Below are positions 925 through 25,951 of a stretch of 64,000 nt of DNA, one piece after another (position 1 is the stretch's first letter; the number at the start of each line of letters is the position of its first letter). The translations under genes were made by a program, and so were the position numbers. The stretch covers positions 25,766 to 89,765 of IMG/VR virus record IMGVR_UViG_3300023179_000058; one strand, written 5' to 3'. The notes under the pieces were generated by a model, which made no database searches, had not been told where the DNA came from, and saw only the letters and a program-made list of their open reading frames with translations. The DNA is from a virus.

Positions 925-939
925 TTGAAAGGAAATATC

Positions 940-2361
940 ATGACTACTTTTGTAGATGCAGTTGTAAACCAAGAAGCCCGTACCGAGAATGGTATGAAGG
1001 CTCGCAAGTCTATCGCCAACGCGGTTGTAGATTTGTTCTATAACGCTGGCGCAAGCCGCGGTAAGAACATTGTGCCAGCATTCTCTGCCGCAATGGCTGA
1101 GAATCGTGACCTTGCATTGCGTGTTGCCGCATGGCTCCGTGATGCGCGAGGTGGTGCTGGTGAGCGTCAATTGTTCCGCGATATTCTAGTGTACCTAGAA
1201 AAGAACGATACTGAAGCCGCAAAGGCTTTACTACGCAAGGTCCCAGAATTGGGGCGTTGGGATGACCTGTTTGTCTTTAATTCTAAAGACATGAAGAATG
1301 AGGCATACACTTTGCTTGGCGATGCATTGCGTTCGCGTAATGGACTTGCCGCTAAGTGGACACCTCGTCAAGGTCCTATCGCAGTTGAAATCCGTAACTT
1401 CTTTGGCATGTCTCCAAAGTTCTATCGTAAGTCCCTAGTCGAATTGACTAAGGTTGTAGAATCTCAGATGTGTGCTAAAGATTGGGACAACATCAACTTT
1501 AGCCATGTGCCTTCTGTTGCATCGGCTCGTTATAAGAAAGCATTCAATCGCAATACTGAAAAGTATGCGGAGTATGTGCAGTCTCTTGTAAAGGGTGACA
1601 ATCCAGAAGTGAAGGTAAATGCATCCGTTGCATATCCATACGATGTGCTTAAAGGTCGCATCGGACACTATGGCGTTACTTTTGACAAGACCGAATTGGA
1701 CTTGATTCAAAAGCAATGGGAAGCATTGCCTAACTATGTTGGCGATGCAAACATCCTCCCACTGGTTGATGTATCTGGCTCTATGTCTTGTCCAGCAGGA
1801 AAGAACACAAAACTTTCTTGCCTTGAAGTAGCAGTCTCTCTGGGATTGTATCTTGCAGACAAGAACACCGGAAAGTTCAAGGACACCTTCTTGACTTTCT
1901 CTAACAAGCCAGAGTTGTTGAATCTGAAAGGTAACATCAACCAAAAGATTGATCAAATGATCAAATCTAAGTGGGAGATGAACACCAACCTACATGCCGC
2001 ATTCAAGAAAATTCTTGATGTTGCAGTAAAGGGTGGTGTGCCTCAAGAAGAAATGCCAGCAATGGTATTGATTTTGTCTGATATGCAGTTTGATCAATGC
2101 ATGACCCATGATGATTCTGCAATTCAGATGATTCAACGCAAGTACAAAGATGCAGGTTATGAAATGCCACAAGTGGTATTTTGGAACCTAAACGCATCGT
2201 ACGGCAACGCGCCAGTCAAATTTGACAAAGGCGGCACCGCTCTGGTGTCTGGCTTCTCGCCAGCGATTGTGAAGCCACTCTTGTCGGGAGACATTGATAA
2301 CTTCACACCAGTATCGATCATGCTGAAAACCATCATGGATGATCGCTACAAAGTTCTTTAA
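940..2361 (+). CDS. DUF2828-type TROVE/Ro60-like protein with C-terminal vWA domain
   Basis: Motifs RDARGGAGER, GRWDDL, AAKWTPR, YPYDV, MIDAS DVSGSM, ILSDMQFD, VFWNL, LVSGFSP; start moved to the ATG after SD AAAGGA. Confidence 0.85.
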   Translation: MTTFVDAVVNQEARTENGMKARKSIANAVVDLFYNAGASRGKNIVPAFSAAMAENRDLALRVAAWLRDARGGAGERQLFRDILVYLEKNDTEAAKALLRKVPELGRWDDLFVFNSKDMKNEAYTLLGDALRSRNGLAAKWTPRQGPIAVEIRNFFGMSPKFYRKSLVELTKVVESQMCAKDWDNINFSHVPSVASARYKKAFNRNTEKYAEYVQSLVKGDNPEVKVNASVAYPYDVLKGRIGHYGVTFDKTELDLIQKQWEALPNYVGDANILPLVDVSGSMSCPAGKNTKLSCLEVAVSLGLYLADKNTGKFKDTFLTFSNKPELLNLKGNINQKIDQMIKSKWEMNTNLHAAFKKILDVAVKGGVPQEEMPAMVLILSDMQFDQCMTHDDSAIQMIQRKYKDAGYEMPQVVFWNLNASYGNAPVKFDKGGTALVSGFSPAIVKPLLSGDIDNFTPVSIMLKTIMDDRYKVL

Positions 2362-21877: not shown

Positions 21878-22145
21878 AAAACAAAAAGAGATTATGAGCA
21901 TTGCACAGGAAGAATGTGCAGAAGTTGTTCAAGCAATTAGTAAAATTTTTAGATTCGGATTAGATGAATCATTCGAAGGTAAGACTAATCGCGAAAGATT
22001 GACAAGTGAACTAGGTGATCTTCAATGCATGATTACACTACTTAAACAGTATGAAGTAGTTGATGATTTTAAAGTACATCAAGCCGAACTTGCAAAAAGA
22101 ACTCGCCTTAGCAAATGGTCTAACATCTTTACTGAGGTACAGTAA
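21855..22145 (+). CDS. MazG-like NTP pyrophosphohydrolase
   Basis: QEECAEVVQAISK...ELGDL. Confidence 0.75.
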   Translation: MNNYYLDEKQKEIMSIAQEECAEVVQAISKIFRFGLDESFEGKTNRERLTSELGDLQCMITLLKQYEVVDDFKVHQAELAKRTRLSKWSNIFTEVQ

Positions 22146-22951
22146 TGATCGTTCTCTACGGGCATGGCTATGTTGCAGATTACATAGCCAAAGAAATGCA
22201 TAAGCAATCATTTAAGTTTGTTCGCTTAACGCATCATGCATTAGTACCTAAAGATGCAAAGTTTATTGTCAATGCCGCAGGCTTTACGGGCAACCCTAAT
22301 GTAGATGCTTGTGAGGTTTTGCGTGATGAGTGCGTAGACGGAAACATTCGATGGCCACTTAAACTTGAAAGAATCGCAAGCCAAATTTCTGATATTCCAA
22401 TTCTACACATTACTAGTGGTTGTGTGTATACTGGCTATGATAAAGAATGGACAGAAAATGATCCGCCAAACTTTACATTCAACAATGCTTCTTTCTATAG
22501 CGCATGTAAAGCATTGGCACAAGAACTACTATCGCCATATATGAACAAGTCATATTTGTTCCGAATTCGTATGCCATTTGGTCCGCACATTCACCACAAG
22601 AATCTATTGACAAAATATGAAAGATATGCTAAACTTGTAGACTATGAGAACAGCGTAACACAGGTTGAAGATTTAGCAAAATGTGTTTGTCATTTCATCA
22701 TGATAAAACCAACATATGGAATTTATAATGTTTGTAATCCTGGCAGTACTAGCACGAAAGAAATTGTTGCAGAAATGGGGCTCCATAAAGAATGGATGAC
22801 TCATGATGATTTTGCTAAGGCAGTAGTTGCGCCGAGAAGTAATTGTGTGCTAAATACTAAGAAGTTGGAAAGTGTGTATGCTATGCGGTATGCTGACCAA
22901 GCGGTAAGCGAAACAGTACGCACATACTTATCACACAATCTTTACTTATGA
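22145..22951 (+). CDS. RmlD-like NDP-4-keto-6-deoxyglucose 3,5-epimerase/4-reductase
   Basis: NAAGFTGNPNVDACE, SGCVY, FYSACK, RIRMP. Confidence 0.8.
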   Translation: MIVLYGHGYVADYIAKEMHKQSFKFVRLTHHALVPKDAKFIVNAAGFTGNPNVDACEVLRDECVDGNIRWPLKLERIASQISDIPILHITSGCVYTGYDKEWTENDPPNFTFNNASFYSACKALAQELLSPYMNKSYLFRIRMPFGPHIHHKNLLTKYERYAKLVDYENSVTQVEDLAKCVCHFIMIKPTYGIYNVCNPGSTSTKEIVAEMGLHKEWMTHDDFAKAVVAPRSNCVLNTKKLESVYAMRYADQAVSETVRTYLSHNLYL

Positions 22952-23011
22952 CTGTATGAAGCAAAGAGAAAAGTGTTCTGGACGCGGGTTCGACTCCCGC
23001 CTGGTCCACCA
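22950..23011 (+). ncRNA. ssrA: Permuted tmRNA, acceptor piece
   Basis: GGAC-GCGGG-TTCGACT-CCCGC-CTGGTCC-A-CCA; GACTGT and TGTTCTG pair with the downstream piece. Confidence 0.9.
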
Positions 23012-23028
23012 TAAGGAGATTTGTAAAC

Positions 23029-23415
23029 ATGGCATATTCCGATAAAGTAGTTGACCACTATGAAAACCCAAGAAATGTTGGATCGTTTGACAAGAACGAT
23101 ACTGATGTTGGTACTGGCATGGTTGGTGCTCCTGCTTGCGGAGATGTTATGAAACTACAGATAAAGGTTAATCATAAGACAGGTATTATTGAGGACGCCC
23201 GTTTTAAGACATACGGATGCGGGTCGGCAATCGCATCAAGTTCTCTTGTCACAGAATGGGTCAAGGGCAAGACTCTTGACGAGGCGGCAGGTATTAAAAA
23301 TTCTGAGATTGCAGAAGAACTCGCCCTCCCTCCAGTCAAAATACACTGTTCAATACTTGCTGAAGATGCGATTAAGTCAGCAGTAGAAGATTACCGAAAG
23401 AAAATCTCTTTATGA
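23029..23415 (+). CDS. iscU: Fe-S cluster scaffold IscU, inside the tmRNA intervening segment
   Basis: MAYSDKVVDHYENPRNVG, GAPACGDVM, FKTYGCGSAIAS, LPPVKIHCS. Confidence 0.97.
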   Translation: MAYSDKVVDHYENPRNVGSFDKNDTDVGTGMVGAPACGDVMKLQIKVNHKTGIIEDARFKTYGCGSAIASSSLVTEWVKGKTLDEAAGIKNSEIAEELALPPVKIHCSILAEDAIKSAVEDYRKKISL

Positions 23416-23416
23416 T

Positions 23417-23584
23417 GGGCCAGTCATGGTTTCGACAGGGCAAAGAGTAACAGAGTAGACAGTCCGGTAGATGACGACCGTAAATCGCATAAATAAAGTA
23501 AACGCAAACGATGAAAAGTTCGCATTGGCAGCCTAAACGCTGACTAGGGTTTCGGTGAGTTTCCTCGTAACAGAATAACTCACC
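23417..23584 (+). ncRNA. ssrA: Permuted tmRNA, coding piece (tag ANDEKFALAA)
   Basis: 5' GGGCCAG, GGTTTCGAC D-loop analogue, tag ORF 23504-23536, terminal hairpin GGTGAGTT/AACTCACC. Confidence 0.92.
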
Positions 23585-23701
23585 ACTAATTTTGGATAGT
23601 TGTAGTCGGCGGCAAAACCCGTTAGGCAGACCTAACTTTGGATTGCTTTATGATAACGAACCGAAATGATTTTTAATTTTTTAACCTCTAAGGGGAATTT
23701 T

Positions 23702-23899
23702 ATGAAATATGTTATTGCAACTATCGTATCACTTTTCGCAACTATTGCTATGGCACAGCCAGCAAAGCAACCTGAACCAACTCCTCCTGCTAAAGTAGCA
23801 GAAGCGAAGAAGGAAGCACCTAAGGCAGAGGCTCCAAAGGCTGAAGCAAAGAAGGCTGATGCTAAGAAAGACGAAAAGAAAGAAACACCTAAGAAGTAA
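23702..23899 (+). CDS. Exported Lys/Ala/Pro/Glu-rich low-complexity protein
   Basis: Signal peptide followed by EAPKA repeats. Confidence 0.7.
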   Translation: MKYVIATIVSLFATIAMAQPAKQPEPTPPAKVAEAKKEAPKAEAPKAEAKKADAKKDEKKETPKK

Positions 23900-23935
23900 T
23901 TAAATAAGGGTCTTCCCAATTCCCCCCAAGAATTG

Positions 23936-23975
23936 GAATCCAATTTTATCACGCAGTAAGATTGGATTTTTTTTT
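23936..23975 (+). terminator. Probable intrinsic terminator
   Basis: AATCCAATTTTA/TAAGATTGGATT stem followed by a long T tract. Confidence 0.55.
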
Positions 23976-23998
23976 TGCGTAATCTAAAGGAGACTAGT

Positions 23999-25039
23999 AT
24001 GGAGTTCTTAACTCTTGCCTTGTTCAAAGGCATTTCATACCTCTGGATGTTATTCTTCATTATGATAATTGCGGGACTAGCGAAACAATATGAATTGTTC
24101 GCCCCTGCCTATTCCTATGTTAAGAATACATTCAGGTCCAATAGATTTGTAGTTGCCCTACTGAGTGCAATCGGTGGCGTTCTTCCTATCGAAGGTCGCG
24201 TTACTGTGAGCGCAGGTCTTCTTGATACTGTGGCTCCAAAAGAGTCAGAGAGTAGAAAGAAGTTGGGCATCGTGGACTATCTAGCGACACACCACTATTA
24301 CATGTGGTCGCCGTTAGAGAAAACCGTGATACTTCCTATCGCCGCATTTGGCTTAGCCTATAGTGCGTTTATAGGGATGATTGCACCTCTATTGGTGGTG
24401 AGTTTGGCGTTCATTACTTTCTATATCTGGACACAGATTAGGGAAGAAGAAATTCCAATCACACCTGGTCGATTTAAACTGAGTTCGGTCATAAGAAATG
24501 TAATGCCAATGGTAGTAGCAATTACTGCTTACGCTACAGGTGTCGCTGATCACACTTGGTGTTTTGGCTTACTTGCTTTATATTATGTGTTTATCACACA
24601 ACAATGGGATCCAAAGAAACTACTTGGTTATATCAAGTGGGATGTGATTGCAATTGTTGGCTTTGTGATTGTGCTAGGTAACTTCCTCAAATCATACGAT
24701 AGTGCATTTGTAGCATTCATCAAAGGTAGTATGCTTGACCCTACTACATTTGTTGGTATGTTGATTATTTCTGTCGTTGGTTTTGTTGCAAGTTTTCTGA
24801 TGGGTAGTTCTGGTAAGTTTATTGCTCTTGCTGTCGTTATGGCGCAAGTGTTTGGACCTCAATATTTCTTGTGGTTCTTTGCAATTGACTACGCAGGCTA
24901 TTTACTCAGCCCAACACACAAATGCGTGATGGTAGGAAACACCTATTTCGGAACGCCACTCAGCGTGTATTATAAAGCACTTGGTACTTGGGCGCTATTG
25001 CTCATTGCTACCGCGGGGCTATTTACATTCATCATCTAA
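23999..25039 (+). CDS. Polytopic inner-membrane protein, probable ion-transporter (IT) superfamily
   Basis: About 10 hydrophobic segments; GGVLPIEG and GYLLSPTHKC motifs. Confidence 0.65.
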   Translation: MEFLTLALFKGISYLWMLFFIMIIAGLAKQYELFAPAYSYVKNTFRSNRFVVALLSAIGGVLPIEGRVTVSAGLLDTVAPKESESRKKLGIVDYLATHHYYMWSPLEKTVILPIAAFGLAYSAFIGMIAPLLVVSLAFITFYIWTQIREEEIPITPGRFKLSSVIRNVMPMVVAITAYATGVADHTWCFGLLALYYVFITQQWDPKKLLGYIKWDVIAIVGFVIVLGNFLKSYDSAFVAFIKGSMLDPTTFVGMLIISVVGFVASFLMGSSGKFIALAVVMAQVFGPQYFLWFFAIDYAGYLLSPTHKCVMVGNTYFGTPLSVYYKALGTWALLLIATAGLFTFII

Positions 25040-25081
25040 CATAACCTAGGGGCAGAGACCCCTAGATTGGGAGGAAAACTT

Positions 25082-25951
25082 ATGATAAAACAAATGCTAT
25101 CATTAGCAGTTGCTTTTGCATTTTTTTCTGGCAATGCAATCGCACAAAATAAATTAAGTACGCCGGAATCTGAAGTAAGAAAAGAGGAAGAAGCAAAAAC
25201 ATTACCCGCGGTAATTGTAAGTGCTAAAATTCCAAATCAGTTTGATACTGTCGGTGAGTATAATCAGCCAGTCTGGACTACTACTCGAATGTTTCCCACT
25301 ACAAGAGCATATGTGATGACACCGCCAGGTGCCGTTAAATATGAAAAGTGGTTTGACTTTAGAGATAGAAAAAATGGTCCAACTCAAATTCGTATGCGTG
25401 ATGAGTTGGCATTCGGTTTGGGAAACAGATTGGAATTAGATTTGTATAACCATACCGTGTATGATGGTCCATCTGAAGACAAGACATTTGCTTGGAGAGG
25501 ATTCAGTTGGGAGATTCGATATGCGTTAGCAGATTGGGGAAAGATTCCTGGAAACCCTACATTATATTTTGAACATAAATTGATTAATGGGGTTCAAGGT
25601 ATCGAGCCAAAACTTTTGTTATCTGACAGAATTGGAAACACCGACTGGATTTGGGCAACTAATTTCATCTATGAAGCAAACTTAGCGAAAACTAAAGCCG
25701 CACAAGAACGCGAATATGCAGTTACCGCAAGTCTAGGTAAAATTATAAGCAACAATTTGACGGTGGGTGCATCTGCACATTACAGATACCATAACTATGA
25801 AGACAATATTAAAGAACTTTATATTGGTCCGAATATCAATTATCGTGTCGGTAAGAATGCAAGATTCAGTCTAGAATATATGCCTCTAGTTTCAAAAGAA
25901 GGCAAATATGATAGTAGAAGTTTCTTTATCTTTGCATGGGACCTTCAGTAG
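25082..25951 (+). CDS. Exported protein, probable outer-membrane beta-barrel
   Basis: Signal peptide, alternating aromatic strands, C-terminal FFIFAWDLQ. Confidence 0.6.
   Translation: MIKQMLSLAVAFAFFSGNAIAQNKLSTPESEVRKEEEAKTLPAVIVSAKIPNQFDTVGEYNQPVWTTTRMFPTTRAYVMTPPGAVKYEKWFDFRDRKNGPTQIRMRDELAFGLGNRLELDLYNHTVYDGPSEDKTFAWRGFSWEIRYALADWGKIPGNPTLYFEHKLINGVQGIEPKLLLSDRIGNTDWIWATNFIYEANLAKTKAAQEREYAVTASLGKIISNNLTVGASAHYRYHNYEDNIKELYIGPNINYRVGKNARFSLEYMPLVSKEGKYDSRSFFIFAWDLQ

What the first reader, a model, noticed from the sequence alone, without database searches (positions are those of the whole stretch)
22950..23584. Permuted two-piece tmRNA whose intervening segment is a complete iscU gene
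Seen: the tmRNA 3' domain (T arm, CTGGTCC-A-CCA, ending 23011) lies upstream of the 5' domain (GGGCCAG at 23417, tag ANDEKFALAA at 23504-23536). The halves pair into a 7-bp acceptor stem with the G3-U70 alanine determinant. Helix 2 also forms across the gap (CAGGGCA/TGTTCTG and ACAGTC/GACTGT). The 405 nt between them are almost purely an iscU cistron: the SD (TAAGGAG) begins on the base after CCA, and the TGA stop is 1 nt before the tmRNA 5' G. Established: permuted ssrA genes are matured by RNase P plus 3' trimming, and their intervening segment is usually short and non-coding. Inference: maturation would excise an intact iscU mRNA. Ribosomes initiating or terminating on iscU would cover both acceptor strands, potentially coupling tmRNA production to translation of an Fe-S scaffold. 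I know of no described case, but cannot search the literature here.
Basis: partly seen in the sequence, partly recalled or inferred. Interest (0 to 1): 0.92.

Follow-up and report, generated by a model that had tools for sequence, protein, structure and literature searches.

The report
iscU gene inside phage tmRNA spacer
A lake phage carries its ribosome-rescue RNA (tmRNA) as a two-piece gene, and the spacer normally discarded during maturation holds a complete, selected gene for the iron-sulfur scaffold protein IscU, so one transcript probably serves as both messenger and stable-RNA precursor.

Summary
ARAGORN and Rfam (RF04321, 127.5 bits) call a permuted tmRNA at 22950-23627. Its 405-nt intervening segment (23012-23416) is filled by an intact 128-codon iscU gene.

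Independent lake DNA contigs span both junctions, so it is not a mis-join. A second, diverged copy of the arrangement (L231) gives dN/dS 0.044 for iscU.

The ribosome-binding site (TAAGGAGATT) pairs with the gene's last codons (AATCTCTTTA, then TGA). This forms the spacer's closing stem, which extends the acceptor helix. That stem covaries across 107 spacers.

The case is not unique. 35 of 107 related spacers hold a filling ORF, in 23 unrelated families, with the same built-in start and stop. Acceptor pieces identical to the window's flank empty or different spacers. A syntenic relative (L197) keeps a decayed acceptor piece in front of a free-standing iscU.

This scan had already met the class on other DNA; iscU is a new and the largest cargo I saw. 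My paper searches found no description. Processing, translation and any coupling between them remain untested.

The parts
22145..22951 (+). Upstream 268-codon ORF. Its TGA stop (22949-22951) overlaps the first bases of the tmRNA gene, which leaves no room for a promoter in between.
   Evidence: No Pfam or PHROG family matched. Sigma-70-like sites inside it (22607-22635, 22700-22729) are not above chance.
22950..23011 (+). tmRNA acceptor piece. It holds helix-2 strands GACTGT 22950-22955 and TGTTCTG 22974-22980, the T arm 22984-23000, acceptor 3' strand CTGGTCC 23001-23007, discriminator A 23008 and encoded CCA 23009-23011.
   Evidence: ARAGORN, the Rfam RF04321 alignment, and folds. 60 of 60 aligned bases are identical to the acceptor pieces of L188, L197, L138 and others.
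23012..23416 (+). Intervening segment (spacer), 405 nt. It consists of a 17-nt leader, the iscU ORF with its stop, and 1 nt.
   Evidence: The ORF covers 96% of the spacer. None of 200 shuffles reached that ORF length, and the longest antisense ORF is 20 codons.
23012..23022 (+). 5' strand of the spacer's closing stem (TAAGGAGATTT). It contains the Shine-Dalgarno sequence of iscU.
   Evidence: Pairs with 23402-23412 in the MFE fold of the whole precursor. Stem energy is -10.7 kcal/mol. Covariation across 107 spacers.
23029..23415 (+). iscU: 128 codons plus TGA. It has Cys37, Asp39, Cys63, the LPPVK motif, His and Cys at IHCS. The last three residues (ISL) are encoded by the closing-stem strand.
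   Evidence: Pfam NifU_N 186 bits, phrog_8429 139 bits, PDB 2l4x 228.6 bits with ligands aligned. dN/dS is 0.044 against L231. Native C-termini of relatives.
23402..23412 (+). 3' strand of the closing stem (AAATCTCTTTA). It encodes the last codons of iscU and is followed by TGA 23413-23415 and U(-1) 23416, which lie opposite ACCA.
23417..23627 (+). tmRNA coding piece. It holds acceptor 5' strand GGGCCAG 23417-23423, helix-2 strands CAGGGCA 23436-23442 and ACAGTC 23459-23464, the tag ANDEKFALAA 23504-23533 with TAA 23534-23536, and a 3' hairpin 23558-23586 followed by a T run.
   Evidence: ARAGORN. Rfam RF04321. RF01850 beta_tmRNA scores 67.1 bits here, below its cut-off of 84. Cofold. The coding piece is 87.6% identical to L188.

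Best explanation
This is a working, betaproteobacterial-type two-piece tmRNA gene of an uncultured freshwater T4-like phage. Its spacer has captured the phage auxiliary gene iscU.

Shown:
- Both tmRNA halves are intact.
- iscU is intact and under strong purifying selection while sitting in the spacer.
- The spacer keeps the family's closing stem. The stem's 5' strand serves as the ribosome-binding site. Its 3' strand supplies the last three codons, with the stop codon lying opposite the CCA tail.
- The same tmRNA backbone occurs with empty or different spacers, so the spacer behaves as an exchangeable gene slot.

Inferred:
- The locus is transcribed as one precursor, probably read through from the upstream gene.
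- While the RNA is nascent the SD is free, and ribosomes translate iscU.
- Once the far strand is made and the last ribosome has left, the 11-bp closing stem and the 7-bp acceptor stem zip up (-30 kcal/mol together). This hides the SD and presents the substrate to RNase P, which cuts between 23416 and 23417, and to the 3' trimming enzymes that expose CCA at 23011.
- On any one molecule, translation and maturation therefore exclude each other. Each precursor yields a limited burst of IscU and then one tmRNA.
- IscU would boost host Fe-S cluster assembly for phage or host Fe-S enzymes. The host supplies IscS and SmpB.
For: tmRNA integrity:
- ARAGORN permuted call with tag ANDEKFALAA. RF04321 scores 127.5 bits against a cut-off of 47.
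- The MFE fold of the 691-nt precursor recovers the T arm, acceptor stem, closing stem and both helix-2 segments without constraints. The cofold of the two pieces does the same.
- Acceptor position 6 covaries across relatives: GGGCCTG/CAGGTCC 69, GGGCCAG/CTGGTCC 29, GGGCCCG/CGGGTCC 7, with 1 mismatched of 110.

iscU:
- NifU_N 186 bits. 2l4x 228.6 bits with cluster ligands aligned.
- Window against L231: 127 codons, 91.3% aa and 80.6% nt identity, differences 13/5/56 by codon position, dN/dS 0.044.

Not an artefact:
- In run X5 a 449-nt contig with 0 differences spans 22988-23436. In run X6 a contig spans 23190-23455. DNA runs of at least 3 studies hold most of the stretch.

Closing stem:
- 90.4% of cells are paired over 12 positions in 107 unique spacers. 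Slid registers give 40-57%. Partner shuffles give a mean of 57.8% and a maximum of 62.5% of 1000.
- The stem alone is -10.7 kcal/mol, against -9.0 for SD with anti-SD. The extended helix is -30.1.

Slot behaviour:
- 18 of 20 spacers of 120 nt or more hold a sense ORF covering at least 70%, against 1 of 20 antisense. For 80-119 nt the count is 17 of 44, and for under 80 nt it is 0 of 43.
- The stop is exactly 1 nt before the 5' G in 29 of 35.
- The 35 ORFs fall into 23 clusters. An SD core lies in the first 10 nt in 24 of 35 ORF-bearing spacers against 9 of 72 others.
- One cargo is a thioredoxin, at 75 bits.
- The window's acceptor piece is 60/60 identical to L188 (68-nt non-coding spacer) and L197 (55-codon ORF).

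Origin:
- 79 of the 80 nearest phage iscU loci show no iscS, hscB or hscA by tblastn in the DNA held, which reaches at most 3 kb each side, and 65 have iscA.
- Their C-termini read ..EDYRKKH.., whereas the window and L231 read ..EDYRKK-ISL*.
- L197, which is syntenic with the window, has a decayed acceptor piece directly before iscU (alignment A1).
Against: - No RNA evidence exists for the precursor, the processed ends or translation. The RNA-library contigs laid cover only parts and cannot show ends.
- No convincing promoter was found: 7 sites against 7.9 expected by chance.
- The clade-specific model RF01850 scores only 67.1 bits, below its cut-off of 84, because of the long insert.
- The only other iscU-bearing spacer (L231) has an unusual T loop (TGCGAAT) and is missed by ARAGORN. 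The tmRNA of that lineage might therefore be decaying.
- A sequestered SD could equally mean that iscU is poorly translated here.
- The IscU tree does not resolve window plus L231 as a supported clade.
- The record is about 55% complete and shows no SmpB, IscA or radical-SAM genes. The client of the extra IscU is therefore unknown.
Confidence: 0.6

Rival explanations
1. Passive passenger. The spacer is simply a permissive place, because it is removed anyway. The closing stem exists only to bring the tmRNA halves together. iscU is expressed like any operon gene, with no meaningful coupling or gating between translation and tmRNA maturation.
For: - The closing stem is equally present in non-coding spacers, including 28-38-nt spacers of Acidobacteriaceae MAG tmRNAs.
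- The cargo is highly varied, at 23 clusters, which argues against a cargo-specific function.
- Phage genomes pack genes tightly everywhere.
Against: - The SD core is enriched in the stem's 5' strand only when an ORF is present: 24 of 35 against 9 of 72.
- The stop sits exactly 1 nt before the RNase P site in 29 of 35.
- So the stem has been co-opted as start and stop signal. Physically, the SD cannot be both paired (-10.7 kcal/mol) and ribosome-bound.
Confidence: 0.27
2. Dead tmRNA. Insertion of iscU disabled the tmRNA gene. Only iscU is functional, and the halves are decaying remnants that happen to still score.
For: - L231's T loop departs from the consensus and ARAGORN does not call it.
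- L197 shows that acceptor pieces in front of iscU can decay.
- RF01850 is below its cut-off in the window.
Against: - The window's acceptor piece is 60/60 identical to those of short-spacer relatives.
- The tag frame, G3-U70, T arm, CCA and helix 2 are all intact.
- RF04321 still scores 120.9 bits in L231.
- The closing stem is kept despite coding constraints.
Confidence: 0.07
3. Two transcription units. The acceptor piece ends one transcript, and iscU plus the coding piece are made from their own promoter. The halves then meet in trans and no spacer excision links them.
For: No promoter was located upstream, so the transcription pattern is open.
Against: - Only 17 nt separate CCA from the ATG, and they are occupied by the SD and stem strand. 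No promoter-like site was found there.
- The covarying closing stem makes sense only if both strands are on one RNA.
Confidence: 0.04
4. Assembly chimera. The iscU segment was mis-joined between two tmRNA halves.
For: Related tmRNA genes with other spacers coexist in the same lakes. They produce 'joints' that skip 384-428 nt in run X5.
Against: - A 449-nt contig with 0 differences in X5 covers both junctions. X6 covers the 3' junction.
- L231, from another metagenome, has the same junctions at 80.6% nt identity.
Confidence: 0.01

Closest known systems
Circularly permuted (two-piece) tmRNA genes, betaproteobacterial type (Rfam RF01850; general model RF04321). Phage examples include OM43 phage Melnitz and the pelagimyophages.
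   Same: - The gene order is the same: acceptor piece, intervening sequence, coding piece.
- It also has an encoded CCA, a G3-U70 acceptor stem formed in trans, and an ALAA-ending tag.
- PMC11915505 (passages read) describes cleavage of the precursor by tRNA-processing enzymes.
- PMC9004378 (section 8 read) counts 53 two-piece forms among 133 unique phage tmRNAs, mostly aquatic.
   Different: - Here the intervening sequence is a full protein gene, with its SD and stop built into the closing stem.
- In the passages I read, PMC11915505 mentions only a tRNA-Ala gene (called unique) and a repetitive element in intervening sequences.
- PMC9004378 mentions a glutamine riboswitch, and no ORF.
Phage NifU-like/IscU auxiliary gene (phrog_8429), usually found as an iscU-iscA pair
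   Same: - It is the same protein family, 85-93% identical to IscU of other phage contigs.
- It lacks iscS and hscBA, like 79 of the 80 relatives.
   Different: - It is not free-standing. It is nested in a stable-RNA gene.
- iscA is missing from the window.
- The native C-terminal ..KKH.. is replaced by stem-encoded ISL.
tRNA punctuation of mitochondrial transcripts, and mixed tRNA-mRNA operons such as E. coli thrU-tyrU-glyT-thrT-tufB (recalled, not read here)
   Same: An mRNA is bounded by tRNA-like structures and would be released by RNase P at its 3' side and by 3'-end tRNA processing at its 5' side.
   Different: - Both punctuation marks are halves of one tRNA-like domain that must pair with each other across the mRNA.
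- The stop codon lies 1 nt from the cleavage site.
Earlier notes of this scan on other genomes (for example e1-5741835, e1-6108175, e1-5766292)
   Same: The same class is described: a stem-closed spacer of phage permuted tmRNA used as a slot for small genes. I reached this independently, before the look-up.
   Different: - The cargo here is a well-understood metabolic protein, and the largest ORF I saw in the slot.
- There is a second diverged copy for a selection test.
- A relative carries a relic acceptor piece that documents turnover.

Membership tests
Permuted two-piece tmRNA (RF04321) | Covariance-model score at or above the curated cut-off | tested here: met
   127.5 bits against 47, E 1.4e-24. 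ARAGORN makes a permuted call.
Permuted two-piece tmRNA (RF04321) | Acceptor stem formed between the 3' end of the acceptor piece and the 5' end of the coding piece, with G3-U70, discriminator A and CCA | tested here: met
   GGGCCAG 23417-23423 pairs with CTGGTCC 23001-23007, followed by A and CCA. Position 6 covaries in relatives.
Permuted two-piece tmRNA (RF04321) | T arm with a tRNA-like T loop | tested here: met
   GCGGG-TTCGACT-CCCGC 22984-23000.
Permuted two-piece tmRNA (RF04321) | Tag reading frame that starts at an Ala resume codon and ends in ..ALAA plus stop | tested here: met
   ANDEKFALAA* at 23504-23536.
Permuted two-piece tmRNA (RF04321) | Precursor cut into two pieces; alanylation; SmpB binding; trans-translation | not testable with these tools
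   RNA-library contigs show no ends. No SmpB was found in the 89.8-kb record, so the host's copy would be needed.
Betaproteobacterial tmRNA subtype (RF01850) | Score at or above 84 bits, including the clade-specific helices | tested here: inconclusive
   The window scores 67.1 bits over the coding piece only. The relative L024, with a 108-nt spacer, scores 120.2 bits.
IscU / NifU_N Fe-S scaffold (PF01592) | Family profile match over the full length | tested here: met
   186.1 bits against a cut-off of 22, residues 2-126. Solved IscU 2l4x scores 228.6 bits.
IscU / NifU_N Fe-S scaffold (PF01592) | Three cluster-ligand cysteines, Asp39, His105 and the LPPVK chaperone motif (residue roles recalled) | tested here: met
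   APACGD, YGCGSA and LPPVKIHCS are aligned identically to 2l4x and 3lvl.
IscU / NifU_N Fe-S scaffold (PF01592) | Purifying selection in this genomic context | tested here: met
   dN/dS is 0.044 against L231, which has the same nested arrangement.
Stem-closed ORF slot in phage tmRNA spacers (a class seen in this scan, found in none of the papers I searched) | Closing stem whose 5' strand is the SD and whose 3' strand is the last codons, with the stop 1 nt before the tmRNA 5' G | tested here: met
   23012-23022 pairs with 23402-23412, TGA at 23413-23415.
Stem-closed ORF slot in phage tmRNA spacers (a class seen in this scan, found in none of the papers I searched) | The same tmRNA backbone with other or no cargo | tested here: met
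   The acceptor piece is 60/60 identical in L188 (non-coding spacer), L197 (55-codon ORF), L138 and others.

The most novel reading that the evidence does not exclude
The slot may be a built-in pulse generator and self-limiter.

- The SD is free only on the nascent precursor.
- Folding of the closing and acceptor helices shuts translation off and triggers maturation.
- RNase P then leaves the released iscU mRNA with its stop codon only 1 nt from the 3' end.
- Ribosomes terminating on processed RNA would therefore be near-non-stop complexes, which the phage's own tmRNA could tag with ANDEKFALAA for degradation.
- Cargo dosage would thus be set by, and inversely tied to, tmRNA maturation.
- Conserved tmRNA halves would serve as recombination handles that let phages swap cargo genes such as iscU, thioredoxin and membrane peptides, much like integron cassettes.
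Probability: 0.12. Interest if true: 0.92.

Novelty: new variant of a known kind. Interest (0 to 1): 0.8.

Why it matters
- The intervening sequence of permuted tmRNA genes is treated as disposable. Here it is a conserved, selected messenger for a metabolic protein, wired into the helix that RNase P must recognise.
- That makes one RNA both mRNA and stable-RNA precursor. The physical conflict between ribosome binding and folding can be tested directly with stem mutants.
- It also points to a previously unappreciated exchange site for phage auxiliary genes.
- Annotation pipelines will either miss the tmRNA, as ARAGORN does in L231, or miss the nested gene.
- For Fe-S biology, it adds a phage route for supplying IscU whose dosage may be tied to ribosome-rescue capacity.

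Tried and rejected
Leads that went nowhere:
- Cultured relatives. blastn of the locus, and of a short-spacer relative's tmRNA, against 50,697 phage records gave only T-arm hits (20% cover or less) and iscU hits. H1 is a bacterial isc operon filed as phage. H3, a Kyanoviridae phage, has a free-standing iscU and no tmRNA beside it.
- More iscU-in-spacer loci. The acceptor-plus-iscU-start pattern found 0 in viral contigs and 0 in metagenome contigs. The iscU-start-to-junction pattern found 1, which is L231. The window's own record and near-copies may be left out of these scans.
- Bacterial control. The 32-nt acceptor pattern hit only 26 contigs in the species-representative genomes. Most are one-piece tmRNAs. 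8 are Acidobacteriaceae MAGs, where my script found permuted-type spacers of 28-38 nt without ORFs; ARAGORN called 6 of them permuted. So I have no betaproteobacterial host set for comparison.
- Expression. RNA-library contigs (X15, X17) cover only parts of the stretch, partly from relatives and bacterial iscU, and may be DNA carry-over. They say nothing on ends or transcription.
- Promoters. Nothing was found above chance.
- IscU tree. It is too short to resolve a single capture. Window and L231 are nearest by path (0.26) inside an 8-row group with 97/76 support, which is not starred.
- Fe-S partners or clients in the record. No IscA, radical SAM or SmpB was found, but the record is about 55% complete.
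- Pfam on ten slot ORFs. Only thioredoxin (L161) is clear.

Literature:
- Five searches found no paper that describes a protein gene in a tmRNA intervening sequence.
- I read passages of PMC11915505, passages and section 8 of PMC9004378, and passages of PMC10117765 (not relevant).
- PMC516066 (Sharkady and Williams 2004) is not held. Keiler et al. 2000 was not read.
- Supplements are closed. Table S1 of PMC9004378 and the supplementary tables of PMC11915505 could bear on whether long, coding spacers were noticed.

Limits:
- Of 147 pattern matches, 117 had a recognisable downstream 5' piece within 2.5 kb. The other 30 are contig ends or one-piece tmRNAs and were dropped from the spacer counts.
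- Identical spacers were collapsed, and L158 (4 nt, below my 28-nt floor) was dropped. That leaves 106 spacers, or 107 with L231.
Natural relatives with identical acceptor pieces and short spacers (L188, L197) serve that purpose.
Full report
What is there.

The window is part of an 89.8-kb virus record, estimated at about 55% complete. It has T4-like baseplate genes, PhoH, a MazG-like gene, an exonuclease and tRNA genes.

At the finding's coordinates the sequence reads as follows:
- Acceptor piece 22950-23011, comprising the T arm 22984-23000, CTGGTCC 23001-23007, A 23008 and CCA 23009-23011.
- A 405-nt spacer, 23012-23416.
- A coding piece from 23417, with GGGCCAG at its 5' end and the tag ANDEKFALAA at 23504-23536.

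ARAGORN calls a permuted tmRNA at 22917-23627. Rfam's tmRNA_permuted model scores 127.5 bits against a cut-off of 47 and treats the 405 nt as an insertion. The clade model beta_tmRNA reaches 67.1 bits on the coding piece alone, below its cut-off of 84. It scores 120.2 bits on a short-spacer relative.

A two-molecule fold of the mature pieces does the same.

The cargo.

The spacer consists of a 17-nt leader, a 128-codon ORF with TGA at 23413-23415, and one further base. The ORF is IscU on three lines of evidence:
- Pfam NifU_N scores 186 bits.
- The phage family phrog_8429 scores 139 bits.
- Solved IscU 2l4x scores 228.6 bits, with the APACGD, YGCGSA and LPPVKIHCS motifs aligned identically. 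The roles of these residues are recalled, not tested.

Not an artefact, and selected.
- DNA runs from at least three studies hold most of the stretch.
- In run X5 a 449-nt contig with no differences spans 22988-23436, which covers both junctions. In run X6 a contig spans 23190-23455.
- A pattern scan of metagenome contigs found one further locus, L231. It has the same junctions (TAAAGAGATTTGTAAAAATG at the start...AAAATCTCTTTATGAT before GGGCC) and scores 120.9 bits with RF04321.
- The two IscU genes are 91.3% identical in protein and 80.6% in DNA. Differences fall 13/5/56 by codon position, and dN/dS is 0.044.
- L231's flanks are not syntenic with the window.
- L231's T loop is unusual, and ARAGORN misses the gene.

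The closing stem.

I compared spacers behind the same 32-nt acceptor pattern. A downstream 5' piece was found for 117 of 147 matches.

Every spacer begins and ends with complementary strands. The stem starts on the base after CCA and ends 4 nt (mostly TGAT or TAAT) before the 5' G.
- Over 12 positions in 107 unique spacers, 90.4% of cells pair. Slid registers give 40-57%. Partner shuffles give a mean of 57.8%, and none of 1000 exceeds 62.5%. Several pair types occur at most positions.
- In the window the strands are TAAGGAGATTT (23012-23022) and AAATCTCTTTA (23402-23412). So the SD is one strand and the last codons (ISL) are the other. The stop lies opposite the CCA tail.
- The stem alone is -10.7 kcal/mol, against -9.0 for SD with anti-SD. 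The continuous helix including the acceptor stem is -30.1.

A class, not a singleton.
- Of 20 unique spacers of 120 nt or more, 18 carry a sense ORF covering at least 70%, against 1 of 20 on the antisense strand.
- Of 44 spacers of 80-119 nt, 17 carry such an ORF (at least 60% cover). Of 43 shorter ones, none do.
- In 29 of 35 ORF-bearing spacers the stop is exactly 1 nt before the 5' G.
- The 35 ORFs fall into 23 clusters. They include a thioredoxin (75 bits), a 122-codon protein without a family match, and a recurrent 24-residue hydrophobic peptide.
- An SD core lies in the first 10 nt in 24 of 35 ORF-bearing spacers against 9 of 72 others.
- The window's acceptor piece is 60/60 identical to those of L188 (68-nt non-coding spacer), L197 (55-codon ORF), L138 and others. 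Its coding piece is 87.6% identical to L188's and 85.9% to L197's.
Conversely, the iscU cargo occurs in two rather different backbones (window and L231).

Where iscU came from.
- The nearest IscU genes in viral contigs are phage-type. 79 of 80 show no iscS, hscB or hscA by tblastn in the DNA held, which reaches at most 3 kb each side, and 65 have iscA next door.
- Their C-termini read ..EDYRKKH.., while the window and L231 read ..EDYRKK-ISL*. The gene was therefore fused to the stem strand.
- L024 has iscU-iscA directly upstream of a tmRNA with a 108-nt non-coding spacer.
- L197 is syntenic with the window, with PhoH about 84% identical and the exonuclease shared. Its order is: exonuclease, a decayed acceptor piece (5' part nearly identical, T arm destroyed..GTTCCATCATAA..), iscU, iscA, a 400-codon dehydrogenase-like ORF, an intact acceptor piece, a 55-codon spacer ORF, and the coding piece (alignment A1).
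- I infer that the acceptor-iscU junction predates the split of these phages. Recombination within iscU between a window-type and an L024-type genome would produce L197 and leave the first acceptor piece to decay. This is inference only. The IscU tree is too short to test it.

How it most likely works.

The anatomy, the selection on iscU, the stem covariation and the exchangeability are shown. The rest is inferred:
- There is one precursor, probably read through from the upstream ORF, whose stop overlaps the tmRNA start. No promoter was found above chance.
- The SD is accessible only before the far strand is transcribed, or while ribosomes keep the stem open.
- After the last ribosome leaves, the helix forms and hides the SD. 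RNase P then cuts between 23416 and 23417, and 3' trimming exposes CCA.
- By established footprint sizes, a ribosome terminating at 23413-23415 would cover the 5' acceptor strand. Translation and maturation therefore exclude each other on one molecule.

No RNA data test any of this. The RNA-library contigs I laid cover only parts of the stretch and show no ends.

Known or new.
- Two-piece tmRNAs in aquatic phages are described (PMC9004378, section 8 read). The tmRNA database paper notes a tRNA-Ala gene and a repetitive element in intervening sequences (PMC11915505, passages read).
- Five full-text searches found no report of a protein gene there. Supplements and two key older papers could not be read.
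- This scan itself has noted the class on other genomes, and the stem on this stretch. I reached both readings from my own calls (19, 25) before looking.
- I therefore rate it a new variant of a known kind, with high interest. The physical arrangement is solid. The mechanism is open, and it can be tested directly.

Noticed in passing
L197, minus strand, about 2850-2775 (just upstream of iscU at 2765-2379): A decayed copy of the tmRNA acceptor piece sits directly before a free-standing iscU-iscA pair. Its 5' 40 nt are nearly identical to the intact copy, its T arm is destroyed, and the end reads ..GTTCCATCATAA... It lies 2 kb upstream of the intact tmRNA, in a contig syntenic with the window.
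   Followed up: partly
L231 6975-6995: The second iscU-bearing tmRNA has T stem GGGGG/CCCCC and T loop TGCGAAT, with G where tRNAs have the conserved U. ARAGORN misses it, yet RF04321 gives 120.9 bits.
   Followed up: partly
L206, L210, L212, L214, L216, L219, L222, L230 (genome contigs): Acidobacteriaceae MAGs carry permuted tmRNA genes with 28-38-nt stem-closed spacers ending TGGT, and with long tags (ANKGVFA...ALALAA). The papers I read name only alpha, beta and cyanobacterial clades as the main permuted lineages.
   Followed up: no
L087, L102, L108, L112, L198 (101-nt spacers); L089: Conserved 31-residue Cys-rich ORFs (MKYTALCPSCF...) start in the spacer and read on into the mature tmRNA 5' end, instead of stopping at the TGA.
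   Followed up: no
L161 (268-nt spacer): The spacer cargo is an 84-residue thioredoxin (Pfam 75 bits). Like IscU, it is a redox helper protein.
   Followed up: partly
window 925-2361: A 478-residue ORF matches phrog_850 'RNA-binding protein' at 473 bits, between two tRNA clusters. An earlier first-reader note calls it Ro60/TROVE-like, with neighbouring stem-closed small RNAs.
   Followed up: no
window 22145-22951: A 268-residue ORF has no Pfam or PHROG match but shows a YSACK motif, which recalls short-chain dehydrogenase or sugar-epimerase enzymes (recalled). It ends ..NLYL with TTATGA, overlapping the tmRNA start.
   Followed up: no
window 23666-25951: Downstream of the tmRNA lie a 77-residue Lys/Ala-rich secreted-looking protein, a DUF401 membrane protein (phrog_14035, 291 bits) and a 294-residue outer-membrane-like protein. 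Relatives L024 and L163 carry a porin-like gene at the same place.
   Followed up: no
window 23001-23430, run X5 (table 5): Five contig 'joints' skip 384-428 nt between the two tmRNA halves. Loose ends match the spacers of other loci (for example L109, L147). This indicates that several tmRNA variants with different spacers coexist in one lake.
   Followed up: partly
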